Shown here piece after piece: positions 1,350 to 45,412 of a stretch of DNA of 64,000 nt. The position numbers were made by a program, and so were the translations under genes. The stretch lies in NCBI RefSeq assembly GCF_054482525.1, contig NZ_CM137006.1; one strand, written 5' to 3'. Below the pieces are notes generated by a model, which worked only from the letters and a program-made list of their open reading frames with translations, did no database searches and was not told the DNA's origin. Each line of letters opens with the position of its first letter. Position 1 is the stretch's first letter.

Positions 1350-4022
1350 ATGACAGATGTAACGATTAAAACGCTGGCCGCAGAGCGACAGACCTCCGTG
1401 GAACGCCTGGTACAGCAATTTGCTGATGCAGGTATCCGGAAGTCTGCTGACGACTCTGTGTCCGCACAAGAGAAACAGACTTTGATTGACCACCTGAATC
1501 AGAAAAATTCAGGCCCGGACAAATTGACGCTGCAACGTAAAACACGCAGCACCCTTAACATTCCTGGTACCGGTGGAAAAAGCAAATCGGTACAAATCGA
1601 AGTCCGCAAGAAACGCACCTTTGTGAAACGCGATCCGCAAGAGGCTGAACGCCTTGCTGCGGAAGAGCAAGCGCAGCGTGAAGCGGAAGAGCAAGCCCGT
1701 CGTGAGGCAGAAGAATCGGCTAAACGCGAGGCGCAACAAAAAGCTGAACGTGAGGCCGCAGAACAAGCTAAGCGTGAAGCTGCTGAACAAGCGAAACGTG
1801 AAGCTGCGGAAAAAGACAAAGTGAGCAATCAACAAGACGATATGACTAAAAACGCCCAGGCTGAAAAAGCCCGCCGTGAGCAGGAAGCTGCAGAGCTCAA
1901 GCGTAAAGCCGAAGAAGAAGCGCGTCGTAAACTCGAAGAAGAAGCACGTCGCGTTGCTGAAGAAGCACGTCGTATGGCGGAAGAAAACAAATGGACTGAT
2001 AACGCGGAACCGACTGAAGATTCCAGCGATTATCACGTCACTACTTCTCAACATGCTCGCCAGGCAGAAGACGAAAGCGATCGTGAAGTCGAAGGCGGCC
2101 GTGGCCGTGGTCGTAACGCGAAAGCTGCGCGTCCGAAGAAAGGCAACAAACACGCTGAATCAAAAGCTGATCGTGAAGAAGCACGCGCAGCAGTACGTGG
2201 CGGTAAGGGCGGAAAACGTAAAGGTTCTTCGCTGCAGCAAGGCTTCCAGAAGCCTGCTCAGGCCGTTAACCGTGACGTTGTGATCGGCGAAACCATCACC
2301 GTTGGCGAACTGGCGAACAAGATGGCGGTTAAAGGCTCTCAGGTCATCAAAGCGATGATGAAACTGGGCGCAATGGCAACCATCAACCAGGTTATCGATC
2401 AGGAAACCGCACAGCTGGTTGCTGAAGAGATGGGCCACAAAGTTATCCTGCGTCGTGAAAACGAGCTGGAAGAAGCGGTAATGAGCGACCGTGACACGGG
2501 TGCAGCGGCTGAACCGCGTGCGCCGGTTGTGACCATCATGGGTCACGTTGACCACGGTAAAACCTCTCTGCTGGACTACATTCGTTCAACGAAAGTGGCC
2601 TCTGGCGAAGCGGGCGGCATTACCCAGCACATTGGTGCATACCACGTTGAAACTGAAAACGGCATGATCACCTTCCTGGACACCCCGGGGCACGCCGCGT
2701 TTACTTCAATGCGTGCTCGTGGTGCGCAGGCAACGGACATCGTAGTCCTGGTTGTTGCTGCCGACGACGGCGTAATGCCGCAGACCATCGAAGCAATCCA
2801 GCACGCGAAAGCGGCGCAGGTTCCGGTGGTGGTTGCAGTGAACAAGATCGATAAACCAGAAGCCGATCCGGATCGCGTTAAGAACGAACTCTCCCAGTAC
2901 GGCATCCTGCCGGAAGAGTGGGGCGGTGAAAGCCAGTTCGTACATGTGTCTGCGAAAGCGGGTACTGGTATCGATGAGCTGCTGGACGCTATCCTGCTGC
3001 AGGCGGAAGTTCTGGAACTGAAAGCGGTACGTAAAGGTATGGCGAGCGGTGCGGTTATCGAATCCTTCCTCGATAAAGGTCGTGGTCCGGTTGCTACCGT
3101 TCTGGTACGTGAAGGTACTCTGCACAAGGGCGATATCGTTCTGTGTGGCTTCGAATACGGTCGTGTTCGTGCGATGCGTAACGAACTGGGTCAGGAAGTG
3201 CTGGAAGCGGGTCCGTCCATTCCGGTGGAAATCCTCGGCCTGTCCGGCGTTCCGGCTGCGGGTGATGAAGTTACCGTTGTACGTGACGAGAAGAAAGCGC
3301 GTGAAGTTGCACTCTATCGTCAGGGTAAATTCCGCGAAGTTAAACTGGCACGTCAGCAGAAATCTAAACTCGAGAACATGTTCGCCAATATGACCGAAGG
3401 CGAAGTTCACGAAGTGAACATCGTCCTGAAGGCAGACGTACAGGGTTCCGTGGAAGCTATCTCCGACTCCTTGCTGAAACTGTCTACTGACGAAGTTAAA
3501 GTGAAGATCATCGGTTCTGGCGTAGGTGGTATCACCGAAACCGACGCTACCCTGGCTGCGGCGTCCAACGCCATCCTGGTTGGCTTCAACGTACGTGCTG
3601 ATGCCTCTGCACGTAAAGTGATTGAAGCGGAAAGCCTGGATCTGCGTTACTACTCCGTCATCTATAACCTGATCGACGAAGTGAAAGCGGCAATGAGCGG
3701 TATGCTGTCTCCGGAACTGAAACAACAGATTATCGGTCTGGCGGAAGTTCGTGACGTATTCAAATCACCGAAATTTGGTGCCATCGCAGGTTGTATGGTT
3801 ACCGAAGGTGTGGTTAAACGTCACAACCCGATCCGCGTTCTGCGCGACAACGTGGTTATCTACGAAGGCGAGCTGGAGTCCCTGCGCCGCTTCAAAGATG
3901 ACGTTAACGAAGTCCGTAACGGTATGGAATGTGGTATCGGCGTTAAGAACTACAACGACGTCCGCACTGGCGATGTGATCGAAGTGTTCGAAATCATCGA
4001 AATCCAACGTACCATCGCTTAA
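1350..4022 (+). CDS. infB: Translation initiation factor IF-2
   Basis: 890-aa ORF; GTP-binding motifs ([17 protein letters not shown]); charged repetitive N-terminal region; position after nusA. Confidence 0.97.
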
Positions 4023-4035
4023 GGTTGTCTGGGTT

Positions 4036-4113
4036 GTAGGCCGGATAAGGCTTTTACGCCGTATCCGGCAGCCGTTGCCTGATGCGACGCTCGCGCGTCT
4101 TATCAGGCCTACA
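4036..4113. repeat. REP/BIME palindromic elements (two inverted REP units)
   Basis: gtaggccggataagg...gccgtatccggca and gcctgatgcgacgc...cttatcaggcctac palindromes in the infB-rbfA spacer. Confidence 0.8.
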
Positions 4114-4142
4114 CAGCCCTTTCCACCTGAGATTAATTTTAA

Positions 4143-4172
4143 AAGGGGCTATGGCCCCTTTTTTGTCAGGAG
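4143..4172 (+). terminator. GC hairpin plus T-run (attenuating terminator-like structure) just upstream of rbfA
   Basis: ggggctatggcccc followed by ttttttg; overlaps rbfA ribosome-binding region. Confidence 0.45.
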
Positions 4173-4180
4173 AATTTATT

Positions 4181-4582
4181 ATGGCGAAAGAATTTGGTCG
4201 CCCGCAGCGCGTAGCGCAGGAAATGCAAAAAGAGATCGCTCTCATCCTGCAGCGTGAAATTAAAGATCCTCGTCTGGGCATGATGACCACCGTTTCCGGT
4301 GTCGAAATGTCTCGCGACCTGGCGTATGCCAAAGTATATGTAACGTTCCTCAACGACAAAGATGAAGACGCGGTTAAAGCGGGCATCAAAGCGTTGCAGG
4401 AAGCTTCTGGTTTCATCCGCAGCCTGCTGGGGAAAGCGATGCGCCTGCGTATCGTGCCGGAACTGACCTTCTTCTACGACAACTCGCTGGTTGAAGGGAT
4501 GCGCATGTCAAACCTGGTGACCAGCGTGGTCAAACATGACGAAGAACGTCGTGTTAACCCGGACGACAGCAAGGAGGACTAA
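4181..4582 (+). CDS. rbfA: Ribosome-binding factor A (30S maturation)
   Basis: [20 protein letters not shown]... 133 aa; start chosen at ATG 4181 preceded by AGGAG rather than the longer track ORF from 4082. Confidence 0.93.
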
Positions 4583-5526
4583 TGAGTCGTCCTCGTCGTC
4601 GCGGTCGCGACATTAACGGCGTTTTGTTGCTGGATAAACCGCAGGGTATGTCCAGCAATGATGCGCTGCAAAAAGTGAAACGGATTTATAACGCCAACCG
4701 TGCCGGGCATACCGGTGCGCTGGACCCGCTGGCAACTGGCATGTTGCCAATTTGCCTCGGGGAAGCGACGAAGTTTTCCCAGTATCTGCTGGACTCCGAC
4801 AAACGTTATCGGGTGATTGCGCGTCTTGGACAGCGTACCGATACGTCTGACGCCGATGGACAAATCGTTGAAGAACGTCCGGTAACCTTTAGCGCAGAGC
4901 AACTGGCGGCGGCACTGGATACTTTCCGTGGCGATATCGAACAGATCCCATCGATGTATTCAGCACTGAAATACCAAGGCAAAAAACTGTACGAATATGC
5001 GCGTCAGGGCATTGAAGTACCGCGTGAAGCGCGCCCGATTACCGTTTATGAATTGCTGTTTATTCGCCACGAAGGCAATGAGCTGGAGCTGGAAATTCAC
5101 TGCTCAAAAGGCACTTATATCCGCACCATCATTGATGACCTGGGTGAAAAACTCGGTTGTGGCGCGCATGTTATTTACCTGCGTCGTCTGGCGGTAAGTA
5201 AATATCCGGTTGAACGGATGGTGACCCTGGAACATCTGCGTGAACTGGTTGAACAAGCCGAACAGCAGGATATTCCAGCCGCGGAGTTACTTGATCCATT
5301 ACTGATGCCAATGGACAGTCCAGCTTCGGACTACCCGGTGGTGAATCTTCCGTTAACGTCTTCTGTTTACTTCAAAAATGGTAACCCGGTTCGTACATCC
5401 GGTGCGCCGCTGGAAGGACTGGTTCGCGTTACAGAAGGTGAGAACGGCAAGTTTATCGGTATGGGCGAAATTGACGATGAAGGCCGCGTCGCGCCTCGTC
5501 GCCTGGTGGTTGAATACCCGGCGTAA
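4582..5526 (+). CDS. truB: tRNA pseudouridine(55) synthase
   Basis: 314-aa ORF, TruB family motifs ([12 protein letters not shown]); 1-nt overlap with rbfA stop. Confidence 0.96.
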
Positions 5527-5578
5527 TGTTAACCGTCTTGCGATAACAGGTCGCTACGAGTAGAATACTGCCGCTTAA

Positions 5579-9506: not shown

Positions 9507-11400
9507 ATTCGAAACCACTTTTGCAGATCTGGGCCTGAAGGCTCCTATCCTTGAAGCCCTTAACGATCTGGGTTACGAAAAACCATCTCCAATTCAGGCA
9601 GAGTGTATTCCACATCTGCTGAATGGCCGCGACGTTCTGGGTATGGCCCAGACGGGGAGCGGAAAAACTGCAGCATTCTCTTTACCTCTGCTGCAGAATC
9701 TTGATCCTGAGCTGAAAGCACCACAGATTCTGGTGTTGGCACCGACCCGCGAACTGGCGGTACAGGTTGCTGAGGCAATGACGGATTTCTCTAAACACAT
9801 GCGCGGCGTAAACGTGGTTGCCCTGTACGGCGGCCAGCGTTATGACGTGCAATTACGCGCCCTGCGTCAGGGGCCGCAGATCGTTGTCGGTACTCCGGGC
9901 CGTCTGCTGGATCACCTGAAACGTGGCACTCTGGACCTTTCTAAACTGAGCGGTCTGGTTCTGGATGAAGCTGACGAAATGCTGCGCATGGGCTTCATCG
10001 AAGACGTTGAAACCATTATGGCGCAGATCCCGGAAGGTCATCAGACCGCTCTGTTCTCTGCAACCATGCCGGAAGCGATTCGTCGCATTACCCGCCGCTT
10101 TATGAAAGAGCCGCAGGAAGTGCGCATTCAGTCCAGCGTGACTACCCGTCCTGACATCAGCCAGAGCTACTGGACCGTCTGGGGTATGCGTAAAAACGAA
10201 GCACTGGTACGTTTCCTGGAAGCGGAAGATTTTGATGCGGCGATTATCTTCGTTCGTACCAAAAACGCGACTCTGGAAGTGGCAGAAGCTCTTGAGCGTA
10301 ACGGCTACAATAGCGCCGCGCTGAACGGTGACATGAACCAGGCGCTGCGTGAGCAGACACTGGAACGACTGAAAGATGGTCGTCTGGACATCCTGATTGC
10401 GACCGACGTTGCGGCCCGTGGCCTGGACGTTGAGCGTATCAGCCTGGTAGTTAACTACGATATCCCGATGGATTCTGAGTCTTACGTTCACCGTATCGGT
10501 CGTACCGGTCGTGCGGGCCGTGCTGGCCGTGCGCTGCTGTTCGTTGAGAACCGTGAGCGTCGTCTGCTGCGTAACATTGAACGCACCATGAAGCTGACCA
10601 TTCCGGAAGTTGAACTGCCGAACGCAGAACTGCTGGGCAAACGTCGTCTGGAAAAATTCGCCGCTAAAGTACAGCAGCAGCTGGAAAGCAGCGATCTGGA
10701 TCAATACCGTGCACTGCTGAGCAAAATTCAGCCGACTGCCGAAGGCGAAGAGCTGGATCTCGAAACTCTGGCCGCCGCACTGCTGAAAATGGCACAGGGT
10801 GAACGTACTCTGATTGTTCCGCCAGATGCGCCGATGCGTCCGAAACGTGAATTCCGTGACCGTGATGACCGTGGTCCGCGCGATCGTAACGACCGTGGCC
10901 CGCGTGGTGACCGTGAAGATCGTCCGCGTCGTGAACGTCGTGATGTTGGCGATATGCAGCTGTACCGCATTGAAGTGGGCCGCGATGATGGTGTTGAAGT
11001 TCGTCATATCGTTGGCGCGATTGCTAACGAAGGCGACATCAGCAGCCGTTACATCGGTAACATCAAGCTGTTTGCTTCTCACTCCACCATCGAACTGCCG
11101 AAAGGTATGCCGGGTGAAGTGCTGCAACACTTTACGCGTACTCGCATTCTCAACAAGCCGATGAACATGCAGTTACTGGGCGATGCACAGCCGCATACTG
11201 GCGGTGAGCGTCGTGGCGGTGGTCGTGGTTTCGGTGGCGAACGTCGTGAAGGTGGTCGTGAAGGCGGTCGTAACTTCAGCGGTGAACGCCGTGAAGGTGG
11301 TCGTGGTGATGGTCGTCGTTTTAGCGGCGAACGTCGTGAAGGCCGCGCTCCGCGTCGTGATGACTCTACCGGTCGTCGTCGTTTCGGTGGTGATGCGTAA
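9499..11400 (+). CDS. deaD: ATP-dependent DEAD-box RNA helicase DeaD/CsdA
   Basis: [13 protein letters not shown]...; motifs [25 protein letters not shown]; Arg/Gly-rich repetitive C-terminus; start at ATG 9499. Confidence 0.95.
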
Positions 11401-11553: not shown

Positions 11554-12798
11554 ATGGCAACACTAACCACCACCCAAACGTCACCGTCGCTGCTTGGCGG
11601 CGTGGTGATTATCGGCGGCACCATTATTGGCGCAGGGATGTTTTCTCTGCCTGTGGTCATGTCCGGGGCGTGGTTCTTCTGGTCAATGGCGGCGCTGATC
11701 TTTACCTGGTTCTGTATGCTGCATTCCGGCTTGATGATTCTGGAAGCTAACCTGAATTATCGAATCGGTTCTAGTTTTGACACCATCACCAAAGATTTGC
11801 TGGGCAAAGGCTGGAATGTAGTCAACGGCATTTCCATTGCCTTTGTGCTCTATATCCTGACTTACGCCTATATTTCTGCCAGCGGTTCGATTCTGCATCA
11901 CACCTTCGCGGAGATGTCGCTAAACGTCCCTGCACGGGCAGCTGGATTTGGTTTTGCACTGCTGGTAGCGTTCGTGGTGTGGTTGAGTACGAAAGCTGTC
12001 AGCCGGATGACAGCAATTGTGCTGGGGGCGAAAGTCATTACTTTCTTCCTCACCTTCGGCAGCCTGCTGGGGCATGTACAGCCTGCGACATTGTTCAACG
12101 TCGCCGAAAGCAATGCGTCTTATGCGCCGTATCTGCTGATGACACTGCCATTCTGTCTGGCATCGTTTGGTTATCACGGTAACGTGCCGAGCCTGATGAA
12201 GTATTACGGCAAAGATCCGAAAACCATCGTGAAATGCCTGGTGTACGGTACGCTGATGGCGCTGGCGCTGTATACCATCTGGTTGCTGGCGACGATGGGC
12301 AACATCCCTCGTCCGGAGTTTATCGGCATCGCCGAGAAGGGCGGTAACATTGATGTGCTGGTACAGGCATTAAGCGGCGTGCTGAACAGCCGTAGCCTGG
12401 ATCTGCTGCTGGTCGTGTTCTCAAACTTTGCGGTAGCAAGTTCGTTCCTTGGCGTAACGCTGGGTTTGTTTGACTATCTGGCAGATCTGTTTGGTTTCGA
12501 TGACTCGGCTATGGGCCGCTTGAAAACAGCATTGTTGACCTTTGCACCGCCTGTTGTGGGTGGTCTGCTGTTCCCGAATGGATTCCTGTACGCCATTGGC
12601 TATGCTGGCTTAGCAGCTACCATCTGGGCGGCAATTGTACCGGCGCTGTTGGCCCGCGCATCGCGTAAACGCTTTGGCAGCCCGAAATTCCGCGTCTGGG
12701 GCGGTAAGCCGATGATTGCGCTGATTCTGGTGTTTGGCGTCGGCAACGCACTGGTGCATATTTTATCGAGCTTTAATTTGCTGCCGGTGTATCAGTAA
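11554..12798 (+). CDS. mtr: Tryptophan-specific permease Mtr
   Basis: 414-aa polytopic membrane protein, aromatic amino acid permease family. Confidence 0.95.
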
Positions 12799-12858
12799 TT
12801 GAACGAGCCGGATGAGCAGTTTTCATCCGGCAATAATTCACAAGTACACGAGATGGTA

Positions 12859-13389
12859 TCAAATAAACCCCTGTTTATTATAAAGTTCTTCAGCGAGAGT
12901 TTCCCCGTGCTCATCGAAAAAAGCATCGGCGATAGTTAAATTTTCTGCCTTAGGATTTGCCGTTATTTTGCTACCATTGGCATCAAATTCGAGCGCGATA
13001 GCGGTCTCCGAACCCCACCAGTAATAATAAATTAGCGCAAAATTATTTTCCCCTGGCGTAATAAACTTCTCGATTCTCCGCACACAGGCCATGAGTGGCA
13101 TGAAGATTTCATAGCTCTCTGAGAGAAATATGTGATCCATCGTGACTATCTGTGTTTCTTTATTAAAGTTGATATGTTCGGCATAAATATTCTTTTCACT
13201 TTCACCAGAATTACAAGCTGCAAGATTGTTAAGCATTTTTGCAGGATCGCCGTACAACCGCTGCTTCTCGATAAACCATGGTAACCAGTCGTCATAGTCT
13301 TTGATATTTGTTGCTGGTGAATGGAAAAACTTCTCGAGGTTACTCTCGGTAATATGTGCATGAAGAAAAAAGGAAGCCGGTTCACTCAT
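12859..13389 (-). CDS. Hypothetical protein, 176 aa, no recognisable motif (orphan ORF in AT-rich islet)
   Basis: Clean ATG-start ORF with plausible RBS; AT-rich codon usage unlike flanking genes; no signal peptide; not part of the K-12 gene order as I know it. Confidence 0.6.
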   Translation of the reverse strand: MSEPASFFLHAHITESNLEKFFHSPATNIKDYDDWLPWFIEKQRLYGDPAKMLNNLAACNSGESEKNIYAEHINFNKETQIVTMDHIFLSESYEIFMPLMACVRRIEKFITPGENNFALIYYYWWGSETAIALEFDANGSKITANPKAENLTIADAFFDEHGETLAEELYNKQGFI

Positions 13390-13547
13390 GATGATTTTCT
13401 CTGGTAATAAGTCGATTTGTTCATTTCTCTGTTTGGTGATGATAAAACGATGACTATTTTATAAAAGTACAGAACTGGACCTTTCATCTATTTCATATCA
13501 TAAGAAAATATATACAAGAACTGGCTCAGAATAAGCGGAATACGAAA

Positions 13548-14267
13548 ATGGGGCGTAAAGGACTACTTGCTATTGTATTGTTGAGCCTGTTTATCGCCAT
13601 GATTTTTCAATTTTTCTGGCCTGCCCCACACGATGAGCACGTTTTCCTGCTGGTTGAAAAACCTGTCGTACCGTCTTTAAAAATCATTCACGCCGGCGAC
13701 CAGTTATTTATCCGCATTCTGAAAGCGGAAGATAAGCTGGAACTGTGGGCAAGCACCAACAACAAGCCTTACGAACTCTATAAAACCTGGACTATATGCG
13801 CGTGGTCTGGTGGCTTAGGGCCAAAGCACAAACAGGGGGATGGTAAAAGCCCGGAAGGTTTTTATGCCACCAACAAAGGGTTACTTAACCCAAACAGTCG
13901 CTATCATCTGGCATTTAATATTGGTTACCCGAATGCTTACGATCGGGCAAACGGCTACACCGGTGATTTCATTATGGTTCACGGAAACTGCCTTTCGGCG
14001 GGCTGCTATGCCATGACCGATGCTGGTATTGAAGAGATTTATCAACTGGTGGCGCAGGCGCTGAATAGCGGGCAGAAGAGCGTGCCGGTGCATATCTTCC
14101 CGTTTGCGATGAACGAAGAAAATATGCGCCAGGCGCAGGTATGGCCGGAATATAATTTCTGGCGTATGTTGAAGCCCGGCTATGATTACTTTGAAAAAAA
14201 TCGCCGATTGCCAACCATCACCATTGAAAACCGGCGTTATAAAATCAGCCCAACAACTCATCCTTAG
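13548..14267 (+). CDS. YafK/DpaA-like L,D-transpeptidase-fold protein (YkuD domain) with N-terminal signal/anchor
   Basis: 239 aa; hydrophobic N-terminus; YkuD catalytic motif HGNCLSAGC; long-range similarity to E. coli YafK (…SGGLGPK…[10 protein letters not shown]…[11 protein letters not shown]…GCYAM…PGYDYFE…). Confidence 0.75.
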
Positions 14268-15252
14268 CATCCATCGCCAGTTCAAACGAATGCAGGCGCG
14301 CCTGGTGATCGAAAATCTGCCCGTTAACCATAATCTCATCGGCGTCGGTTTCGCGCAGGATCGACTGCAAGCCGTGACGCACTTTCGCTTTATCGCCCAC
14401 CAGCGACATACTCAGCGCCTGCTGCACGCCATACTGCTCGGACGGTGACCAGAACTGATCCATATTTTGAATCGGCGGCGGTAGTTGCCCGGTTTCGCCA
14501 CGGCGTAGTTTCACAAAGGCTTGCTGCATTGAGGTAAAGAGAAATTCAGCGTCGCGGTTGCTGTCGGCGGCGATAATATTGATGCACACCATCGCATACG
14601 GTTTTTCCAGCCGAGCCGACGGTTTGAAGTTACTGCGATAAAGATGCAGCGCCTGGAACAACATATCCGGCGCGAAGTGTGAGGCAAACGCAAACGGCAG
14701 ACCAAGCTGCGCCGCCAGTTGCGCACTGTAAAGGCTGGAGCCTAACAACCATACGGGGATTTTTTCGCCATAGCCTGGTACCGGGCGCACATGTGGATTG
14801 GGATCGCGGGCGTCAAACCAGTCCACCAGCTCCGCGACATCGCGGGGGAAATTATCAATATCGCCGCTCATATGACGACGTAGAGCCATCATGGTTCGCT
14901 GGTCACTACCCGGAGCACGACCCAGCCCCAAATCGATTCGCCCCGGATAGAGCGTATTAAGCGTGCCGAACTGTTCGGCGATCACCAATGGTGAGTGATT
15001 AGGCAACATCACGCCGCCAGACCCCAGATGCAGCGTAGTGGTATTCGCCGCCAGATAGCCAATCAAAACTGATGTTGCAGCACTGGCAATGCCAGTCATA
15101 TTGTGGTGTTCTGCCAGCCAGTAGCGATGATAGCCGCGCTTTTCAGCCAGACGGGCGAGATCGAGAGAGTGGGAGAATGCTTCTCGCGCTGAAGAACCTT
15201 CGGGAATGGGGGCCAGATCGAGTAGCGAAAACGGAATGGTTTTATCAGTCAT
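14245..15252 (-). CDS. yhbW: Luciferase-like monooxygenase YhbW
   Basis: 335-aa [22 protein letters not shown]...; bacterial luciferase-like family. Confidence 0.93.
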
Positions 15253-26276: not shown

Positions 26277-27044
26277 TTAACGACGACACATCTCATCAAT
26301 CATGCATGTGAAATAGTTATGCAGCCATAAAAATGAAGCCGGGATAGCGGTAGAGACTTTAGCCGTGAGAAAACGTTCTGTCGCATCCTGCTTTCCTTCG
26401 CCAGTCACCAGTAACAAAACTTCGTGGGCATTGAGAATATCCTTCAGGCCTAAGGTGATCCCACGAGTCACGGGACGGCCCGCGGTTTTTAACATCTCAT
26501 GTTGCTGTGTTCTGGCATCAAGTTGACTGATATGGCAGGCCGGTTGCAGGCTTTCTCCCGGTTCGTTCAGCCCAAGATGACCGTTTTTCCCCAACCCGAG
26601 AACGCATAAATCCAGACCGCCTTTGCGCGCAATCAGGTGCGTTACCCGTTCGCACTCTGTCTCATTTATCTCTTCGGAGCGAAAGCTGATGAGCTGGTCT
26701 TCACGCAGCCCCAGCGGCTGCACGATATGCTGTTGCAGGAAAGTTTCGCAGGTACCAGGCATAGTTAATGGCAGATCCACCCATTCGTCGAGCTTCACGA
26801 AGGTGAGCTGGCTGACATCAACCTGCTGCTGGTGGATTTTTTCTACCAGATAATGATACGTCAGTAATGGCGTGGCTCCGGTCGCCAGGCAAATCACTGC
26901 ATCCGGTTTGCTACGGATCACTGCCAATAAATATTCGCTGGCACGTTCACTTAACGCCATATAGTTTTCAACTTGCTGAAGGGTTTGCACAGGATGAAAT
27001 TCCTTAAGTAAAGAGGCACCACCAGACGCAGTGCCTCGTTCCAT
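26277..27044 (-). CDS. agaI: Putative galactosamine-6-phosphate deaminase/isomerase AgaI
   Basis: 255-aa ORF, NagB/GlcN6P-deaminase-like; last gene of aga cluster. Confidence 0.88.
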   Translation of the reverse strand: MERGTASGGASLLKEFHPVQTLQQVENYMALSERASEYLLAVIRSKPDAVICLATGATPLLTYHYLVEKIHQQQVDVSQLTFVKLDEWVDLPLTMPGTCETFLQQHIVQPLGLREDQLISFRSEEINETECERVTHLIARKGGLDLCVLGLGKNGHLGLNEPGESLQPACHISQLDARTQQHEMLKTAGRPVTRGITLGLKDILNAHEVLLLVTGEGKQDATERFLTAKVSTAIPASFLWLHNYFTCMIDEMCRR

Positions 27045-27836
27045 TTACAAAATGCCGAATGCGGAACAAACAATAGAGAGCACAAAAGTCACGCCGATTA
27101 ACAGCACCGGATGCGCTTTTTTCACCCGCAGGAAGTAATACATCAGCAGGGTGTAGGCCATCGGTAAAATATTCGGGAAGACTTTATCGAAGAAATCCTG
27201 CTGCAGCGCGACGCTGTGGGTACTGTCGATGGCAAACGATGTCACCACGTTAATATGCACATACGAAGCGATCAGCCCGCCGATTACTGTGATCCCGAGG
27301 ATGGTTGCCGAACGGGCAATCATCTGCGAGTTCTCTCGCACTTTATCGATCGCCTTCACGCCGACTGAATAACCGACGTGGGTCCAGCCGACGCGCAGGA
27401 AAAAGATAAGCAGGTAAACGGCGAAAAATAGAATCGGCCCCAGCAGGTTTCCCTGGCTGGCAAATGATGAGCAAATCCCCGCCATAATCGGCAACAAAGT
27501 GAACCAGAAAATCGCATCGCCAATCCCGGCGATTGGGCCAAACAGTGCCACTTTGAGGCCTTTAATGGTGTCGCGGTTTTCTCCTTTTTCTTCCATCGAA
27601 ATTAATAACCCCATCAGGAATCCGACCAGATTCGGGTGGGTATTAATAAATTCGAGGTTATCTTTCATCGCCGCGCTTAGGCCCGGTTTGTCGTCCTTAT
27701 AAATCTTTTTCAGGATCGGCAACATCGCCCAGGTAAAACCGCCCGCCTGCATCCTTTCGTAGTTAAAGCTTGCTTGTAGCAGTGACGAACGAAAGCCCAG
27801 ACGGGTGATATCTTTTTTACTGATTTCAGATCCCAT
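27045..27836 (-). CDS. agaD: PTS galactosamine-specific EIID
   Basis: MGSEISKKDITRLGFRSSLLQASFNYERMQ… 263 aa from internal ATG; mannose-family IID. Confidence 0.9.
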   Translation of the reverse strand: MGSEISKKDITRLGFRSSLLQASFNYERMQAGGFTWAMLPILKKIYKDDKPGLSAAMKDNLEFINTHPNLVGFLMGLLISMEEKGENRDTIKGLKVALFGPIAGIGDAIFWFTLLPIMAGICSSFASQGNLLGPILFFAVYLLIFFLRVGWTHVGYSVGVKAIDKVRENSQMIARSATILGITVIGGLIASYVHINVVTSFAIDSTHSVALQQDFFDKVFPNILPMAYTLLMYYFLRVKKAHPVLLIGVTFVLSIVCSAFGIL

Positions 27837-28629
27837 TGCTGTAGTCCTCTTCTTCATTTTTACTGGCAACGGGCTGCGGTTGCGCTTGCTGCCGGGATTT
27901 CGCATTGAAAAACTCATACACCGCAAAGCCTGCACCCAGTACGGCAACCGGCAACAGGTTGCTGACCTGGATGTAGCAAACAAACAGGAAGCCAGCGATC
28001 AGGTAAGGGATATATTGCGCTTTGAACATCACGCGCAGCAGCAAGCCAAAACCAACGGCAGGCAGAATACCACCAGCCACTTCAAAGCCGTGGGTCAGCC
28101 AGGCGGGCATCGCTTTCACCAGCGCCTGCATCGCCCCTTGTGCCAGGTAAGTACAGAGGAACGCAATCACCGCATACGCTGAAGCGACGATGAGCATCGT
28201 TGTCCAGTTAAGTCGGGAAAACGCTGCCGTATCCGCCTCTTTCGCGCATTTATCGGCTTTGGTCATAAATAATGAGAAAGCGGAATAGAAGAACAGAATG
28301 ACGTACTGCATTAACAAACTAAACGGCAGGCCAAGACCAATTGCCGTTTTGGCATCAACGCCCGTAGACCATGCAATGACGGTGGTCATCAGACCCGCCA
28401 TAATCGGGTTGGGCGGCTGAACACCACCTGCAGGGGTTAATCCGGCGAAAGCCAACTCTGTCAGACCACCGGTAATTAAGCCAGTCTGAATATCACCGAG
28501 AATAGCGCCAGTTAGGGTACAAACGATTATCGGGCGGAATAAAAATAAGGCTTCCAGCCAAAAATCAATCCCCAGAAAGAAAACTAACGCCGCCAGGGAT
28601 AATCCCTGGAGTAGGGTTATTTCATGCAT
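27826..28629 (-). CDS. agaC: PTS galactosamine-specific EIIC
   Basis: 267-aa membrane ORF, mannose-family IIC; 11-bp overlap with agaD. Confidence 0.9.
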   Translation of the reverse strand: MHEITLLQGLSLAALVFFLGIDFWLEALFLFRPIIVCTLTGAILGDIQTGLITGGLTELAFAGLTPAGGVQPPNPIMAGLMTTVIAWSTGVDAKTAIGLGLPFSLLMQYVILFFYSAFSLFMTKADKCAKEADTAAFSRLNWTTMLIVASAYAVIAFLCTYLAQGAMQALVKAMPAWLTHGFEVAGGILPAVGFGLLLRVMFKAQYIPYLIAGFLFVCYIQVSNLLPVAVLGAGFAVYEFFNAKSRQQAQPQPVASKNEEEDYSNGI

Positions 28630-28667
28630 TTTTATTACCTCAAACCAATATTAAGGCGATTTTAGAT

Positions 28668-29144
28668 TTAGTCAGGGATTTGTTCTTTTTGATCGCCAGG
28701 GACGTCCTGAATGAAAACATTCACGCCACGTTGTTTAATAAAACGTAAGTCCGTGAGATCCTGGTCATCGACATAAACTTTACTGCTGATTTGCTTTTTC
28801 CCTTCCGAGAAATGCATATTGCCGACGTTGACATCTTTCAGGTCAATGCCACCTTCTACCAATTTACGTACCGTTTGTGGCGTACGGCAAATCAGGAAGA
28901 TCTTTTGATGCGGTGCAGCTTTGCCGATGACATTAATGGTTTTTTCGATAGTAAAGAAACGAATGCCAAAGCCGTAGGTTTCCGCGGTAATACCCATTAA
29001 TTTCTGTTGAATATCATCGTTAGCGACAACATCATCCACGACTACCAGCAGATTTGCACCGATGGTAGATGTCCAGGTCACACCAACCTGGCCATGAACC
29101 AGACGGTTATCAATACGGGTTAAGAGAATATTTGGACTGCTCAT
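28668..29144 (-). CDS. agaB: PTS galactosamine-specific EIIB
   Basis: 158 aa, mannose-family IIB (LTRIDNRLVHGQV). Confidence 0.9.
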   Translation of the reverse strand: MSSPNILLTRIDNRLVHGQVGVTWTSTIGANLLVVVDDVVANDDIQQKLMGITAETYGFGIRFFTIEKTINVIGKAAPHQKIFLICRTPQTVRKLVEGGIDLKDVNVGNMHFSEGKKQISSKVYVDDQDLTDLRFIKQRGVNVFIQDVPGDQKEQIPD

Positions 29145-29310
29145 TGTGTAATCCTCACCATAAAGTTGAATAATATAATCTTTTTAAATATATTATTGTT
29201 GCGGTATTGTACTGATGTATTTATTAAGGTTTAGTTATCTCCTTTACCATTAAGGCACTCCCCGATATTAATCGGGAAGTACATTGGGATAAATCATAAA
29301 AAACTAATGA

Positions 29311-30183
<873 letters not shown>

Positions 30184-31338
30184 TTATGCCTGCCACGGAT
30201 GAATGATTACGCCTTGCACCACGCGGTTAACGGTGCCACTGGCTGATGGGGTATCCGGCGTATTGCCCATGTGCAGCGACTGCATCAGTGCAAACGTCTG
30301 GGCGTACATCAGGAAGCAAAATGCCTGCTCAACGTCGATAAAGTGACGGGACGGCGGCAGGATGATATGTGGACCGGCGGTAATAACGTCGTTGCTTTCC
30401 GCGGCGATAGCGATTACGCGCATCGCCTGGTTATCGCGGCGAAGTTCAGCCAGCAGATCAAGATCATACTGACGGGTGTAAGGGTGGCTGGAGACAAATA
30501 CCACCACCAGCGTTTCGTTATCGACCAGCGATTTCGGGCCATGACGGAATCCGGTCGGGGAATCATAAAAGGCCGCCAGTTTACCCGCCGTCAGTTCCAG
30601 TACTTTCAGCGCCGACTCGCGTGCTGCGCCCTGTAAGCCACCGCTGCCGAGATAAACGATCCGTTTCCACGGTGCGTAACCAAACACACCTTCGCTGAAA
30701 TCGCCCAGTGAGGTCAGGATCGCCTGGCAACGATCCGCCACGTCGCGGAAGCTCTGGCTATTGATCGTCTCAGGTGCGAAAACCGCGAGGCAGCTGGCCA
30801 TCATGGTGGTAATGCTGCTGGTCATCGCAAAGCCGCGATCGTGCGTTTCTGCGGGCATCAGCAGGGCAAACGCGTTGTCGCTGTTGATCGCGTTTTGGTA
30901 AAGAGCGCCCGCTTCGTTGCAGGTGATCGGCAGGTGATAGCATTCTGGTACAAATTGATTTGCCAGTTCCACGGCGGCGACGCTTTCCGGGCTGTTGCCG
31001 GATCGACCGAAGGAGATCAACAGTAGCGGATGAGCTGGATTCAGGTAGTCCATCGGATTAGTGACCAGATCGGTGGTCGGTACGGCGCTGAAGTTTTTAC
31101 CGGTATGGCTGGCGAGCCACGGCGCGATGATGTCACCGATAAATGCCGAGGTTCCGGCTCCGGTCAGGATTACCCGCAGATTCTCTTTGAGCAGTAACGG
31201 TTCAAGGAAGTTATTGAGCGCGGAACGTAGCGCGTCGATGTTGGTGAGTGAACGGATCCATGCGCGAGGCTGATGGCGGATCTCTTCTTCAGTCCATGTA
31301 CCGGTTGCGGCAGCAGCAGGGGTGTAATTTTCTGGCAT
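30184..31338 (-). CDS. agaS: Putative sugar isomerase/deaminase AgaS (SIS domains)
   Basis: 384-aa ORF with tandem SIS domains. Confidence 0.92.
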   Translation of the reverse strand: MPENYTPAAAATGTWTEEEIRHQPRAWIRSLTNIDALRSALNNFLEPLLLKENLRVILTGAGTSAFIGDIIAPWLASHTGKNFSAVPTTDLVTNPMDYLNPAHPLLLISFGRSGNSPESVAAVELANQFVPECYHLPITCNEAGALYQNAINSDNAFALLMPAETHDRGFAMTSSITTMMASCLAVFAPETINSQSFRDVADRCQAILTSLGDFSEGVFGYAPWKRIVYLGSGGLQGAARESALKVLELTAGKLAAFYDSPTGFRHGPKSLVDNETLVVVFVSSHPYTRQYDLDLLAELRRDNQAMRVIAIAAESNDVITAGPHIILPPSRHFIDVEQAFCFLMYAQTFALMQSLHMGNTPDTPSASGTVNRVVQGVIIHPWQA

Positions 31339-31391
31339 AACTCAATCCTTAGTCTGATGAACTTGACGTCGGGCGTTGTCGCTTTCGCTTA

Positions 31392-31520
31392 CCTTTCGTT
31401 TCATTTCACTTGGTGATGTCTTTCGTTGATTAAAATCTATAGAAAAGAAACTGAAAGTTCAATGGAGAAAAAAGAAATAAAACGAAATTTGTGATCATTG
31501 AAAGAAAAGACAAGGGAAGA
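31392..31520. promoter_or_regulatory. agaS promoter with AgaR-operator-like repeats
   Basis: cctttcgtttcatttcacttgg fits the AgaR operator pattern; further ctttcgtt/aaacgaaa copies nearby. Confidence 0.6.
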
Positions 31521-31557
31521 TTAAAGGATTGCGTAATGACGTCGCTATGTTCACCGA

Positions 31558-31615
31558 TTGCCGGATGCGGCGTACCGTAGGTCGGATCAGACGCGTTAGC
31601 GTCGCATCCGACACC
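31558..31615. repeat. REP palindromic element pair
   Basis: gccggatgcggcgtaccgtaggtcggatcagacgcgttagcgtcgcatccgacac. Confidence 0.75.
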
Positions 31616-31688
31616 GCTGCACAGATCAAAAAGAAAGAAAAAGAAAGGCCTTACGGGGGAAGTGAAGGCCCAATAATGGAGCAAACCA

Positions 31689-32822
31689 TCAAAACGAAGC
31701 TAATTGACCCTGAATCCAGATTTGTTGCACATGCAGCCCGCTATCCAGCGCAACGACGCTGGCGCGTTTGCCCGGTTTAAGCGATCCCAGAACACCATCA
31801 ACACCCAGCATTCGCGCCGGATGCAGCGACGCCATATGGATGGCTTCCGCAGGCGTTACGCCCGTTAACTCGACCATGTTGCGCACTGCTGCATCGACAG
31901 ATAGCGTACTGCCCGCCAGCCCACCGGACGCGGTACGGACAACGCCACCGTGCATCTGCACTTCTTCGCCACATAACGTATAGCGACCATCCGGCATCCC
32001 AGCTGCCTGCATCGCGTCGGTGATCAGTACGATTCTCTCTTTCGCACAGCAACAACACAGCGACATCGCCGCCGGATGCACATGATGACCATCGGCTATC
32101 AGTTCCAGCCAGGCGCGCTTGTCCGTTAATCCCGCGCCAACCATTCCCGGTTCGCGGTGATGTAAACCTGTCATCCCGTTATAGCAATGCACCAGGCCGT
32201 CGGCACCAGCATCAAATGCGGCGCGGGTTTGTTGCCAGGTCGCCGCGCTATGCCCCAGCATCACCCTTACGTTTTGCTGTTTAAGATGGCGGATGGCCTG
32301 CAATGCCCCTTCTTTTTCCGGTGCCAGCGCTACCACGCGCAAGGTGTGCTGAGAAACGGCAATCAATTGATCCAGCTCGGCAATTTCAAGCTCGCGAAAC
32401 AACTCCGGCGGATGCGCGCCTTTATTCTGCGGCGTGAAGTACGGTCCTTCGAGATAACTCCCCAGCACTTGCGCACCAGGTCCGCCGCGTTGGCAACGTT
32501 GAGCAATACGTTTCAGCGCCGCATGAATGGTATTAAGCGGCGCGGTTACGGTGGTCGGTAACCAACTGCCGACACCTTCGCGTGCCTTGTGCATTGCCAG
32601 CTTGTCGAGTACATCCGGCGCGTCATCCATTACATCAACGCCCGCACCACCATGTACATGGGTGTCGATGTAAGCGGGGCAGAGCAGTTCCGCATCGCGT
32701 TCAGTCACGCCCACTGGAATCGGTTCGATTGCTGCGATTACACCGTCAGCAATACGCAACTGATGGTCATCGAGCCATCCCTCTTCAGTCAGCAGCCTTC
32801 TGGCGCGCAGAACGTGTGTCAT
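31689..32822 (-). CDS. agaA: N-acetylgalactosamine-6-phosphate deacetylase AgaA (full length)
   Basis: MTHVLRARRLLTEEGWL…; about 377 aa; NagA-like metal-binding motifs; intact here. Confidence 0.9.
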   Translation of the reverse strand: MTHVLRARRLLTEEGWLDDHQLRIADGVIAAIEPIPVGVTERDAELLCPAYIDTHVHGGAGVDVMDDAPDVLDKLAMHKAREGVGSWLPTTVTAPLNTIHAALKRIAQRCQRGGPGAQVLGSYLEGPYFTPQNKGAHPPELFRELEIAELDQLIAVSQHTLRVVALAPEKEGALQAIRHLKQQNVRVMLGHSAATWQQTRAAFDAGADGLVHCYNGMTGLHHREPGMVGAGLTDKRAWLELIADGHHVHPAAMSLCCCCAKERIVLITDAMQAAGMPDGRYTLCGEEVQMHGGVVRTASGGLAGSTLSVDAAVRNMVELTGVTPAEAIHMASLHPARMLGVDGVLGSLKPGKRASVVALDSGLHVQQIWIQGQLASF

Positions 32823-33253
32823 ATTCCTTCCTCGACCGGACATTCTTCATGGCAGCGGCCTAACTCGTCTACCAGACTGGTCAGCCCACGGTGTCCACAC
32901 TCCAGCGCCTGCACACGGAACTCTTCACCGCTTAACCCTTCGCGCTCCAGCACCATCTCCAGTAGCAGTTGCAAATTGGTGCCGGTGATCACTTCACAGC
33001 CCGGTTTTTGCATCGCCAGCGTTGAAGCTACGCGAAACGGCGTGCCGCCCAGCAAATCTGTCAGAAAAACAATGCCGTCTTCACAATCCAGTTGGGCGAT
33101 GGCCTCTTCAAGCTGCGATGTAAGCAGCGCGGTGCTTGAGGTTTCGGGAAAATCGATGGCAATAAACTGCGATTGATCGCCGAGGATTTGCTTCATTGCT
33201 TTTTCCATGCCACTGGCAAACCCGCCATGCCCTGTCAAAATAATACTTAACAT
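32819..33253 (-). CDS. agaF: PTS N-acetylgalactosamine-specific EIIA
   Basis: 144 aa, mannose-family IIA (MLSIILTGHGGFASG). Confidence 0.88.
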   Translation of the reverse strand: MLSIILTGHGGFASGMEKAMKQILGDQSQFIAIDFPETSSTALLTSQLEEAIAQLDCEDGIVFLTDLLGGTPFRVASTLAMQKPGCEVITGTNLQLLLEMVLEREGLSGEEFRVQALECGHRGLTSLVDELGRCHEECPVEEGI

Positions 33254-33270
33254 CTAATACCTCATTGTAT

Positions 33271-34155
33271 TTAAAGGAAATGGCAGAATTTACCGACGAT
33301 ACCGAGAACCACGGTAACTGCAATCAGGCGCAGCGGACTCCAGCCGCGGCGTACCAGCCAGAACATGGTCAGGGTGTAGACCAGCGGTAAGAAGGCAGGC
33401 ATCAGTTTGTCGATAACATCAGCCTGTAACTTAACCACTGCGTCGCCCGCTGTGATTTCCAGCGTGGTGCTTAAACGAACATAGGTTGCCACCAGCGCGC
33501 CGATTACCGTCATCCCAACGATAGACGCAGCATGGCCGACTTTTTTGGTATTCGCTTTAATGAGTGGAATCGCCGCCACGCCCATGCGGTAAGCATAATG
33601 CGCCAGACCAAAACGCAGCCCCAGGTGTACCACGTTGAACAGCACAATAAAGACGACTGCGCCAAGAATAGAGCCTTGTAGCGCGAGGCTTGCGCCTATC
33701 CCGCCACAAATCGGCAGTAGCGTCAGCCAGAACATCGCATCGCCAATCCCGCCAAGTGGCGCACCGACGGCAATTTTGGTGCTCTGAATACTGTTAACGT
33801 CCTGCTTAGAACGCTCCATAGCAAGGATAATGCCGATAACAAACGTCACCAGAAACGGATGGGTATTGAAGAAACCCATATGCCCCTTCATGGCGCGCGC
33901 CAGGTCGCGTTTATTAGTGTGGATCTTTTTCAGAGCAGGCAGCAGACCGTACAACCAGCCGGAAGCCTGCATACGTTCGTAGTTAAAAGACGCTTGTAAC
34001 AGCATGGAACGCCAGGCGACGCGGTTGATATCTTTTTTCGTCAGCTCCGCGCCAATGCTCTGATCTTCATACACGTTTTCATTGACGCCAGTCAGCAATG
34101 TTTCTTCGTTTTCACTGACGTTCGGCAGGGTGGTTTGATTAGATGCCATCTTCAA
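33271..34155 (-). CDS. agaE: PTS N-acetylgalactosamine-specific EIID
   Basis: 294-aa membrane ORF paralogous to agaD. Confidence 0.88.
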   Translation of the reverse strand: MKMASNQTTLPNVSENEETLLTGVNENVYEDQSIGAELTKKDINRVAWRSMLLQASFNYERMQASGWLYGLLPALKKIHTNKRDLARAMKGHMGFFNTHPFLVTFVIGIILAMERSKQDVNSIQSTKIAVGAPLGGIGDAMFWLTLLPICGGIGASLALQGSILGAVVFIVLFNVVHLGLRFGLAHYAYRMGVAAIPLIKANTKKVGHAASIVGMTVIGALVATYVRLSTTLEITAGDAVVKLQADVIDKLMPAFLPLVYTLTMFWLVRRGWSPLRLIAVTVVLGIVGKFCHFL

Positions 34156-34918: not shown

Positions 34919-34928
34919 GATGAATCCC

Positions 34929-35402: not shown

Positions 35403-35424
35403 AGCGTGTTCCTCTTTGTTTTGC

Positions 35425-36705: not shown

Positions 36706-36953
36706 TTTCCTCTCCAGTTCAGATTACTGCGATATTAATCTTTCGTTTTGTTTCAGTTGATACTGCGCCATGGTGAGATAAAAATAAAACGAAAGATAAT
36801 GGTTTTCTGATCTGATTCACAAAAGAAACATAATGAAAGCCACTGAAACGAGAGTAGCTTGCGCCAATGGGTAAGGTGGGCTTGCATTTGCTTAATAGAA
36901 AGGCGTTAATAGGCAAAACGAAATGAAACGAAAGTTTTACGAAAGGACTTACT
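36706..36953. promoter_or_regulatory. Divergent kbaZ/agaR promoter region with multiple AgaR-operator-like repeats
   Basis: ctttcgttttgtttcagttga plus inverted copies aaaacgaaag and aaacgaaatgaaacgaaagtttt. Confidence 0.6.
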
Positions 36954-45026: not shown

Positions 45027-45403
<377 letters not shown>

Positions 45404-45412
45404 GATTTACGT

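What the first reader, a model, noticed from the sequence alone, without database searches (positions are those of the whole stretch)
12799..14267. AT-rich two-gene islet between mtr and yhbW, not part of the canonical gene order
Between the convergent core genes mtr and yhbW, which I know as direct neighbours in K-12, lie two divergently transcribed ORFs (12859..13389 minus, 13548..14267 plus) around a ~160-bp very AT-rich spacer. The DNA is visibly more AT-rich and uses different codons from the flanking genes, suggesting horizontal acquisition. An orphan protein paired with a secreted peptidoglycan-enzyme-fold protein is the only material here I cannot assign to a known system.
Basis: partly seen in the sequence, partly recalled or inferred. 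Interest (0 to 1): 0.7.

Follow-up and report, generated by a model that had tools for sequence, protein, structure and literature searches.

The report
Second YafK-type amidase gene pair
About 3% of E. coli strains carry, between the genes mtr and yhbW, an old two-gene cassette that is widespread at the same spot in Salmonella; it encodes a second copy-like relative of the enzyme that releases the outer-membrane lipoprotein Lpp from the cell wall, plus a small cytoplasmic protein of unknown role, and it is real but fairly ordinary.

Summary
Two divergent ORFs, 12859..13389(-) of 176 aa and 13548..14267(+) of 239 aa, flank a 158-bp spacer of 31% GC and fill the whole mtr-yhbW intergenic space.

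- **Distribution in E. coli:** K-12-type strains have a 117-bp REP-type spacer here instead. The pair is in 183 of 5426 complete E. coli genomes.
- **Not a mobile element:** the same pair sits at the same site in Salmonella enterica (thousands of assemblies), Klebsiella oxytoca, Superficieibacter and an Enterobacteriaceae MAG.
- **Exchange between genera:** E. coli-Salmonella synonymous divergence is 0.20-0.25 in the pair against 0.72-1.07 in the flanks. The pair crossed between the two genera after they split, presumably by recombination in the conserved flanks. Low GC recurs in every genus, so it does not date the acquisition.
- **The 239-aa protein:** a paralogue of DpaA/YafK (LdtF), 50% identical, with the catalytic His/Cys and four of six mutagenesis-tested cleft residues kept. 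It scores below the equivalog cut-off and has an anchor-like N-terminus. dpaA itself is present in 5423 of 5426 genomes.
- **The 176-aa protein:** not a true orphan. It belongs to an unnamed family (133 clusters at 50% identity) with no Pfam or PDB relative and a near-invariant N-terminal Met-Ser-Glu-Pro.

Both genes are under purifying selection. Their functions remain inferred. Interest is modest.

The parts
12799..12858 (.). 60-bp 3' intergenic stretch between the mtr stop and the stop of the 176-aa gene. It holds a conserved stem-loop at 12807-12831 (10 pairs), a likely two-way transcription stop.
   Evidence: Fold energy is -18 kcal/mol on the + strand (z -3.9) and -19.6 on the - strand (z -3.7); 0 of 200 shuffles fold as well. 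The stem is conserved between E. coli haplotypes and Salmonella. The simple terminator scan did not list it because no T-run follows, so the terminator function is inferred.
12859..13389 (-). Gene for a 176-aa cytoplasmic protein (RefSeq WP_001294023.1, 'hypothetical protein'). It belongs to an unnamed family with an N-terminal Met-Ser-Glu-Pro signature.
13390..13547 (.). 158-bp divergent promoter region, GC 0.31.
   Evidence: GC. It is 92.4% identical to Salmonella and conserved across E. coli haplotypes and Salmonella. No strict sigma-70 consensus site was found in it and no Rfam family matches. Its promoter role is inferred from the divergent gene arrangement.
13548..14267 (+). Gene for a 239-aa YkuD-fold protein (WP_000532751.1), a paralogue of DpaA/YafK/LdtF. 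It has an N-terminal hydrophobic export or anchor segment (about residues 6-24), catalytic His145 and Cys153. Its last 23 bp overlap the 3' end of yhbW.
   Evidence: NCBIfam LdtF_DpaA_YafK scores 250.4 bits, below the 365 cut-off. Pfam YkuD E is 1.3e-5. PDB 8ikr E is 3e-64. It is 50% identical to E. coli DpaA over 201 aa. Residue mapping is. dN/dS is 0.14 against Salmonella and 0.09-0.12 against more distant orthologues.
11554..12798 (+). mtr (tryptophan permease), left flank. The islet begins at the first base after its stop codon.
14245..15252 (-). yhbW (luciferase-like monooxygenase), right flank. Homology to islet-less E. coli resumes at 14249.

Best explanation
The islet is a non-mobile two-gene cassette that is an old resident of the mtr-yhbW intergenic site in Enterobacteriaceae. 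Most E. coli lack it and carry a short REP-type spacer there instead. The roughly 3% that have it hold alleles belonging to one shallow pool shared with Salmonella. The cassette was therefore exchanged between the two genera after they split, most simply by homologous recombination in the conserved flanking genes (inferred).

Gene 1 encodes a periplasm-facing YkuD-fold cysteine enzyme of the DpaA/YafK subfamily, probably anchored in the inner membrane. I infer that it is a second amidase cutting the bond between peptidoglycan meso-diaminopimelate and a covalently attached protein such as Lpp. Its altered L3 loop and tethered location could give it a different substrate range or site of action from the universal DpaA.

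Gene 2 encodes a cytoplasmic protein of an unnamed family. In that family the free N-terminal Ser-Glu-Pro, the Trp35/Trp38 pair and Glu91 are the conserved features. Its role is unknown. The most likely reading is that it works independently of gene 1 and shares only the locus and possibly the divergent AT-rich promoter region.

Shown: gene identity, distribution, selection and transfer. Inferred: enzyme activity, membrane anchoring, co-regulation and recombination mechanism.
For: **Presence and absence.** The islet is in 183 of 5426 genomes, always full-length. The boundaries fall at the two stop codons.

**Not mobile.** There is no integrase or transposase ORF, no flanking direct or inverted repeats, and no tRNA-type feature.

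**Same pair at the same site in other genera.** Salmonella (the protein is indexed in 5407 and 1314 blocks), K. oxytoca, Superficieibacter and an Enterobacteriaceae MAG.

**Transfer.**
- dS between E. coli and Salmonella is 0.20 and 0.25 for the two genes, against 0.72 (mtr), 1.07 (yhbW), 0.90 (ubiV) and 0.80 (ubiU).
- The non-coding spacer is 92.4% identical.
- Identity steps up at the islet edges.
- The same genes are saturated (dS above 1.4) against Superficieibacter and the MAG. Their synonymous rate is therefore not intrinsically low.
- Salmonella copies lie on a par with the E. coli haplotypes: 4.6-7.5% between genera and up to 7.0% within E. coli.

**Real genes.** dN/dS is 0.12-0.14.

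**Enzyme assignment.**
- NCBIfam, Pfam and PDB matches and 50% identity to DpaA.
- Kept residues are DpaA Lys83, Gln86, Arg108 and Tyr109, with His135 and Cys143.
- DpaA's amidase function and the mutagenesis of these residues are reported in PMC10653827.
- dpaA is in 5423 of 5426 genomes, so this gene is an extra copy.

**The 176-aa protein.**
Against: - No activity, localisation or expression data exist for either protein. Three literature searches found nothing specific.
- The 239-aa protein scores 250 bits against a 365-bit equivalog cut-off.
- Two of the six cleft residues tested by mutagenesis differ: Lys130 is Asp140 and Tyr131 is Phe141. The DpaA Y131A mutant kept only 4% activity.
- The direction of the E. 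coli-Salmonella exchange is unresolved. Bootstrap support for the deep nodes is low.
- E. coli haplotypes at mtr are themselves unusually deep (dS 0.23-0.27). The history may therefore include introgression from other Escherichia species, since E. albertii and E. fergusonii carry the gene.
- Adjacency of the pair through five genera could mean functional coupling, which I rate lower than independence.
Confidence: 0.7

Rival explanations
1. Purely vertical history. The pair was in the common ancestor of Escherichia and Salmonella, was inherited vertically by the carriers and was deleted in most E. coli, with a REP spacer left in its place. No transfer between genera occurred.
For: The same site is occupied in five genera. 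Low GC3 is a constant property of the pair rather than a mark of recent arrival. There are no mobility features. Presence in old lineages of the family fits an ancestral location.
Against: dS between E. coli and Salmonella is about four times lower in the pair than in all four flanking genes. The non-coding spacer is 92% identical. Identity steps up at the islet edges. The same genes are saturated against other genera, so slow evolution does not explain the result. Ancestral residence and a later allelic replacement across genera can both be true.
Confidence: 0.12
2. The two genes form one functional module. The cytoplasmic protein regulates, matures or counteracts the exported amidase, or it handles the amidase's products after uptake. 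It would work like an enzyme-and-partner pair or an effector-and-immunity pair.
For: The divergent adjacency is conserved in Escherichia, Salmonella, K. oxytoca, Superficieibacter and a MAG despite saturated dS. Consecutive protein accessions in several K. oxytoca assemblies confirm adjacency. The shared AT-rich control region is conserved. The near-invariant residues of the family are two Trp and two Glu plus Ser2 and Phe21; a Trp/Glu set could suit a sugar- or peptide-binding site (speculation).
Against: - The 176-aa protein has no export signal while the enzyme domain is exported, so direct contact is unlikely (sequence).
- In Chania and Leminorella the 176-aa homologue stands without the YkuD gene. 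The Leminorella YkuD homologue lies next to the atp operon.
- Three remote family members have no YkuD neighbour.
- In strain SC434 the YkuD gene is a pseudogene while the neighbour is intact.
Confidence: 0.15
3. The 176-aa protein is an orphan immunity protein of a polymorphic-toxin system (T6SS, CDI or Rhs type) kept without its toxin.
Confidence: 0.08

Closest known systems
DpaA (YafK, LdtF) of E. coli: peptidoglycan meso-DAP-protein amidase that detaches Braun's lipoprotein (NCBIfam NF040599; PDB 8ikr; PMC10653827)
   Same: Both are single-domain YkuD-fold proteins of about 240 aa. They are 50% identical over 201 aa. The catalytic His and Cys are kept. The mDAP- and Lys-contacting residues Lys83, Gln86, Arg108 and Tyr109 are kept. 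Both carry an N-terminal export sequence.
   Different: - It scores 250 bits against the 365-bit equivalog cut-off.
- The L3 residues differ: Lys130 is Asp and Tyr131 is Phe. These changes are shared by its orthologues.
- The N-terminus is a 19-residue hydrophobic stretch with no recognisable signal-peptidase site, whereas DpaA has ...VSFA|G (inference).
- It lacks DpaA's C-terminal tail.
- It is accessory in E. coli, while dpaA is universal.
- Its nearest relatives outside the locus are Budviciaceae and Snodgrassella proteins, not enterobacterial DpaA.
Lpg1514 of Legionella pneumophila, a YafK-family protein with serine-dependent beta-lactam turnover (PMC13400389)
   Same: It belongs to the same YafK subfamily scaffold. 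It shows that paralogues on this fold can have chemistries other than Lpp release.
   Different: No direct comparison was made here. Whether the residue equivalent to Ser132 is kept was not tested.
Strain-variable intergenic segments of E. coli replaced through flanking homology (REP/BIME-occupied 'empty' sites)
   Same: There are two alternative alleles at one intergenic site: a 117-bp spacer with the palindrome GCCTTATCCGA/TCGGATAAGGC or 1.45 kb with two genes. The break points fall at the stop codons of conserved genes. There is no mobility machinery.
   Different: The long allele is shared across genera and is the usual state in Salmonella.
Tlde1/Tldi1-type T6SS L,D-transpeptidase-fold effector and immunity pairs (from my own knowledge, not tested against sequences here)
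   Same: A YkuD-fold protein is encoded next to a small protein of unknown family.
   Different: The YkuD protein here has its own N-terminal export segment and is a close DpaA relative. The neighbour has no signal peptide, whereas the immunity protein to a periplasm-acting effector would be periplasmic. There are no T6SS genes nearby.

Membership tests
DpaA/YafK/LdtF equivalog (NCBIfam NF040599) | Whole-protein score at or above the curated cut-off (365 bits) | tested here: not met
   250.4 bits, E 1.3e-74, covering residues 14-235. It is therefore a family relative or paralogue, not the equivalog.
DpaA/YafK/LdtF subfamily (broad sense) | YkuD catalytic domain with the conserved His and the catalytic Cys (DpaA Cys143) | tested here: met
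   Pfam YkuD E is 1.3e-5. His145 and Cys153 align with DpaA His135 and Cys143.
DpaA/YafK/LdtF subfamily (broad sense) | Compact single-domain architecture without LysM or PG-binding or other extra domains | tested here: met
   The protein is 239 aa. Residues 43-236 align end to end with the DpaA crystal chain 8ikr. No other Pfam domain was found.
DpaA/YafK/LdtF subfamily (broad sense) | Substrate-cleft residues shown by mutagenesis to matter most (Lys83 essential; Tyr109 0.7% and Tyr131 4% residual activity; PMC10653827) | tested here: inconclusive
   Lys83 and Tyr109 are kept as Lys93 and Tyr119, and Gln86 and Arg108 are also kept. Tyr131 is Phe141 and Lys130 is Asp140.
DpaA/YafK/LdtF subfamily (broad sense) | Amidase activity on the peptidoglycan mDAP-Lys(Lpp) bond | not testable with these tools
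   This needs biochemistry with purified PG-Lpp sacculi.
Genomic island or mobile element | Integrase, transposase or recombinase gene; flanking direct repeats or terminal inverted repeats; tRNA or other attachment site | tested here: not met
   Only two ORFs lie in the segment and neither is a recombinase. No boundary repeats were found. There is no RNA gene. All 183 copies are chromosomal, single-copy and at one site.
Polymorphic-toxin immunity protein (for the 176-aa protein) | Membership of a described Imm or SUKH family, and adjacency to a toxin gene | tested here: not met
   No Pfam match for 61 family members. No toxin-type neighbour in the contexts examined.
Anti-phage defence system | Match to a PADLOC model | tested here: not met
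   No match for either protein or for six remote relatives.

The most novel reading that the evidence does not exclude
The 176-aa protein may found a new enzyme or ligand-binding family. Its active site would be built around a free N-terminal Ser-Glu-Pro. Exported members are predicted to be cut exactly at Ala|Ser-Glu-Pro, and Ser2, Glu3, Trp35, Trp38 and Glu91 are nearly invariant. In Enterobacteriaceae it would work together with a membrane-anchored DpaA paralogue as a conditionally expressed module that remodels the covalent links between outer membrane and peptidoglycan. For example, it could process or sense the released peptide or muropeptide in the cytoplasm.
Probability: 0.1. Interest if true: 0.55.

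Novelty: new member of a known kind. Interest (0 to 1): 0.3.

Why it matters
DpaA is so far the only known enzyme in E. coli that releases Braun's lipoprotein from peptidoglycan. A second, probably membrane-anchored paralogue occurs in many Salmonella, in K. oxytoca and in lineages of extraintestinal pathogenic E. coli such as ST69. It could alter how tightly the outer membrane is tethered, with consequences for vesicle formation, envelope stress and antibiotic permeability in those strains.

The locus is also a clean example of an accessory cassette exchanged between genera with no mobile-element machinery. It shows that low GC at such a site is not a reliable clock. The 176-aa protein adds an unnamed and structurally unsolved family with an unusual conserved N-terminus. 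None of this overturns current understanding.

Tried and rejected
1. **Mobile element.** I searched for boundary repeats, recombinases and RNA genes and found none.
2. **Flanks imported from Salmonella.** Where the window and K-12 differ, Salmonella agrees with the window at 33 mtr sites and with K-12 at 18. For yhbW the counts are 17 and 20. There is no tract near the islet, so the flanks are Escherichia alleles.
3. **Species-representative scan for the 176-aa protein.** It returned only Superficieibacter and Leminorella. It missed Chania RB-25 although both search motifs are encoded there. I therefore draw no conclusions about absence from it.
4. **Function of the 176-aa protein.** All of these gave nothing usable:
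   - Pfam on the protein and on 61 relatives;
   - NCBIfam, PADLOC and PHROGs;
   - a PDB sequence profile;

   The AFDB matches are almost all 'uncharacterized'.
5. **Conserved neighbours of remote relatives.** Three look-ups, plus a profile scan for tandem paralogues, showed no recurring partner.
6. **Promoters.** The strict sigma-70 scan found no site in the spacer.
7. **Literature.** There is nothing on this paralogue. The LT2 tag STM3278 appears once, as a computational type III effector candidate described as 'putative cytoplasmic protein'. That STM3278 is this gene rests on the name and on my recollection that mtr is STM3279. It was not verified by sequence.

Full report
**1. Observation**

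The ORF list shows 12859..13389(-) at 176 aa and 13548..14267(+) at 239 aa. They lie between mtr (11554..12798, +) and yhbW (14245..15252, -).
- GC drops to 0.37-0.41 over 12750-13650, against 0.53-0.57 in the flanks.
- Per gene, GC/GC3 is 0.40/0.42 for the 176-aa gene and 0.47-0.48/0.53 for the 239-aa gene. The four flanking genes have GC 0.53-0.58 and GC3 0.60-0.67.
- The 158-bp divergent spacer has GC 0.31.
- The first 800 bp of the islet fall in the lowest 4% of 800-bp windows of the 64-kb window.

The window is identical to E. coli SCU-102, a human commensal isolate. RefSeq annotates the two genes there as 'hypothetical protein' and 'L,D-transpeptidase family protein'.

**2. Presence, absence and boundaries**

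Of 5426 complete E. coli genomes, 5424 match the flanks, but only 183 carry the islet.
- All 183 copies are chromosomal, single and full-length. Carriers include an ST69 strain.
- Islet-less strains have a 117-bp spacer holding the palindrome GCCTTATCCGA...TCGGATAAGGC and a GCCTGATGCG...TTATCAGG motif. I recognise these as REP-type sequences from my own knowledge.
- Homology between the two alleles stops at the mtr stop codon (12798) and resumes at 14249, next to the yhbW stop codon.
- No direct or inverted repeats bracket the islet. It holds no recombinase ORF and no Rfam family.

It is therefore not a mobile element.

**3. The same pair elsewhere**

The 176-aa protein has few close relatives: 22 in the word-indexed search. 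Fetching their contigs shows the same divergent pair between yhbW and mtr in four other groups:
- Salmonella enterica. Two exact protein variants are indexed in 5407 and 1314 blocks of the collection, so the pair is widespread in Salmonella.
- Klebsiella oxytoca.
- Superficieibacter electus.
- An unnamed Enterobacteriaceae MAG.

The 90%-identity cluster of the 239-aa protein also contains E. albertii and E. fergusonii entries.

In Chania and Leminorella the 176-aa homologue stands alone. The Leminorella YkuD homologue lies beside the atp operon.

The species-representative scan missed known carriers. I do not use it to argue absence.

**4. History**

I computed Nei-Gojobori estimates for the window against Salmonella.

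| Gene | dS, window vs Salmonella |
|---|---|
| 176-aa gene | 0.20 |
| 239-aa gene | 0.25 |
| mtr | 0.72 |
| yhbW | 1.07 |
| ubiV | 0.90 |
| ubiU | 0.80 |

- The non-coding spacer is 92.4% identical between the genera.
- A 60-bp identity profile rises from about 85% to about 93-97% between roughly 12870 and 14250, then falls again.
- The same two genes are saturated (dS above 1.4) against Superficieibacter and the MAG. They are not intrinsically slow.
- In distance trees the Salmonella copies are at most 1% apart. They sit on a par with E. coli haplotypes that differ by up to 7%. E. coli-Salmonella distances are 4.6-7.5% in the islet against 13-15% in mtr.

I conclude that the cassette alleles of E. 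coli and Salmonella share an ancestor far younger than the two genera, which means exchange between genera. The direction is unresolved because the deep nodes have low bootstrap support.

The flanks of the window are not Salmonella-derived. They are, however, unusually diverged from K-12. dS is 0.23 in mtr and 0.20 in yhbW, against 0.11-0.12 in ubiV and ubiU. Identity is 93-96% next to the islet, against mostly 97-100% elsewhere with occasional dips to 92-96%. This fits an old haplotype or introgression within Escherichia. Other carriers, such as ST69, have a K-12-type YhbW protein.

Low GC3 of both genes is seen in all five genera.

dN/dS of 0.12-0.14 shows both are functional genes. One carrier (SC434) has a pseudogenised YkuD gene.

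**5. The 239-aa protein**

Its family matches are:

| Search | Best match | Score or E-value |
|---|---|---|
| NCBIfam | LdtF_DpaA_YafK | 250 bits (equivalog cut-off 365) |
| Pfam | YkuD | E 1.3e-5 |
| PDB sequences | 8ikr | E 3e-64 |
| E. coli DpaA | 50% identity over 201 aa | |

The 8ikr chain sequence is that of E. coli DpaA.

dpaA itself is in 5423 of 5426 genomes, so this is an extra paralogue.

I mapped the residues tested in PMC10653827 onto the protein:
- Kept: Lys83, Gln86, Arg108 and Tyr109 are Lys93, Gln96, Arg118 and Tyr119. The catalytic pair His135/Cys143 is His145/Cys153.
- Changed: Lys130 is Asp140 and Tyr131 is Phe141. Phe at the Tyr131 position is shared by all orthologues and by the Leminorella relative. 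The Lys130 position is Asp or Ser.

The N-terminus ([30 protein letters not shown]) has a 19-residue hydrophobic core. I can find no small-x-small signal-peptidase site, unlike DpaA's VSFA|G. I infer an uncleaved inner-membrane anchor with a periplasmic catalytic domain.

The most likely activity is cleavage of peptidoglycan-protein (Lpp-type) links. A recent YafK-family protein with a different chemistry (PMC13400389) is a reminder that this is only an inference.

**6. The 176-aa protein**

It has no signal peptide. It has no Pfam, NCBIfam, PADLOC or PHROG match.
- A profile search of 1.84 billion representative proteins finds 133 clusters at E of 0.001 or better. Most are about 180 aa.
- The AF2 model is confident (pLDDT 85, pTM 0.83) and shows an alpha+beta fold.
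- AFDB relatives come from Pseudomonas, Burkholderia, Bacteroidota and a few actinomycetes, and nearly all are uncharacterised.
- None of 61 members matches Pfam.

The family signature is an N-terminal M-S-E-P. It begins 72 of the 129 retrieved relatives. Three members carry a signal-peptide-like extension ending exactly at Ala|Ser-Glu-Pro.

Ser2, Glu3, Phe21, Trp35, Trp38 and Glu91 are nearly invariant. This suggests that the free N-terminus matters for function, but that is speculation.

Remote members have no recurring neighbour and no toxin partner.

**7. Non-coding parts**

A conserved 10-bp stem-loop (12807-12831) lies between the mtr stop and the 3' end of the 176-aa gene. Its energy is -18 to -19.6 kcal/mol with z about -3.8. 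It is probably a two-way terminator, although no T-run follows it.

The spacer has no strict sigma-70 consensus match. Silencing by H-NS is plausible for 31% GC DNA but was not tested.

**8. Verdict**

The finding is real and correctly located. The K-12 comparison is right. What is there is:
- a known kind of thing, an accessory, non-mobile gene pair that is the usual state in Salmonella;
- an uncharacterised paralogue of a recently characterised enzyme family;
- a member of an unnamed protein family.

The exchange between genera and the N-terminal signature are the two points of some interest. I rate interest at 0.3.

Noticed in passing
islet-less E. coli genomes, hits H24 (NZ_CM125667.1) and H26 (NZ_AP027212.1), at the mtr-yhbW spacer that corresponds to window 12799-14248: In some islet-less strains the annotation places an IS110-family IS621 transposase gene between mtr and yhbW. 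From my own knowledge IS621 targets REP sequences, which fits the REP-type nature of the short spacer.
   Followed up: no
window 11554-12798 (mtr) and 14245-15252 (yhbW): E. coli carries at least three deep mtr haplotypes that differ by 5-6% in nucleotides (dS 0.23-0.27). From my own knowledge this is far more than is usual within the species. Islet presence does not follow the haplotypes strictly: JNE151685 has a K-12-like mtr (0.7% different) yet carries the islet.
   Followed up: partly
relatives of the 176-aa protein: P0039, P0066, P0093, P0033: Three family members have an N-terminal signal-peptide-like extension ending exactly before Ser-Glu-Pro (SVSA|SEP, LHA|SEP, LWA|SEP). One member, P0033 (399 aa), is a tandem fusion of two copies. 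The mature N-terminus therefore seems to be conserved in both cytoplasmic and exported forms.
   Followed up: partly
window about 45100-49600: This is the lowest-GC stretch of the window (down to 0.295 in 800-bp windows). By coordinate mapping to SCU-102 it corresponds to rnpB, yhaC, yhaB, tdcR, tdcA and tdcB. The lowest values probably fall on yhaB, yhaC and tdcR. To my knowledge these are also present in K-12, so this is not a strain-specific island.
   Followed up: partly
window about 27000-37000 (aga/kba cluster, by coordinate mapping to SCU-102): The annotation shows intact agaW, agaE, agaF and an N-acetylglucosamine-6-phosphate deacetylase gene. From my own knowledge K-12 has a deletion in this part of the aga cluster, which would be another known difference from K-12.
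   Followed up: no
Salmonella LT2 locus tag STM3278 (literature): STM3278, a 'putative cytoplasmic protein', is listed as rank 44 among computationally predicted type III effector candidates in PMC3240867. It is probably the Salmonella orthologue of the 176-aa protein, judging by name and gene number only. Relatives in bacteria such as Bacteroidota and Pseudomonas putida, which to my knowledge lack such secretion systems, argue against an effector role.
   Followed up: partly
locus L020 (E. coli SC434), 3750-4466: The YkuD-family gene is annotated as a pseudogene (missing its C-terminus) while the neighbouring 176-aa gene is intact.
   Followed up: no
locus L012 (Leminorella grimontii), 5001-5555 and 9944-10543: The stand-alone 176-aa homologue lies about 4.4 kb from a yhbW-like gene (56% identity over 200 aa). 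Between them lie three ORFs that I read, from their sequences, as SymE-like, Sel1-repeat and sulfatase-modifying-factor-like. This may be a trace of an old link to the yhbW neighbourhood.
   Followed up: no
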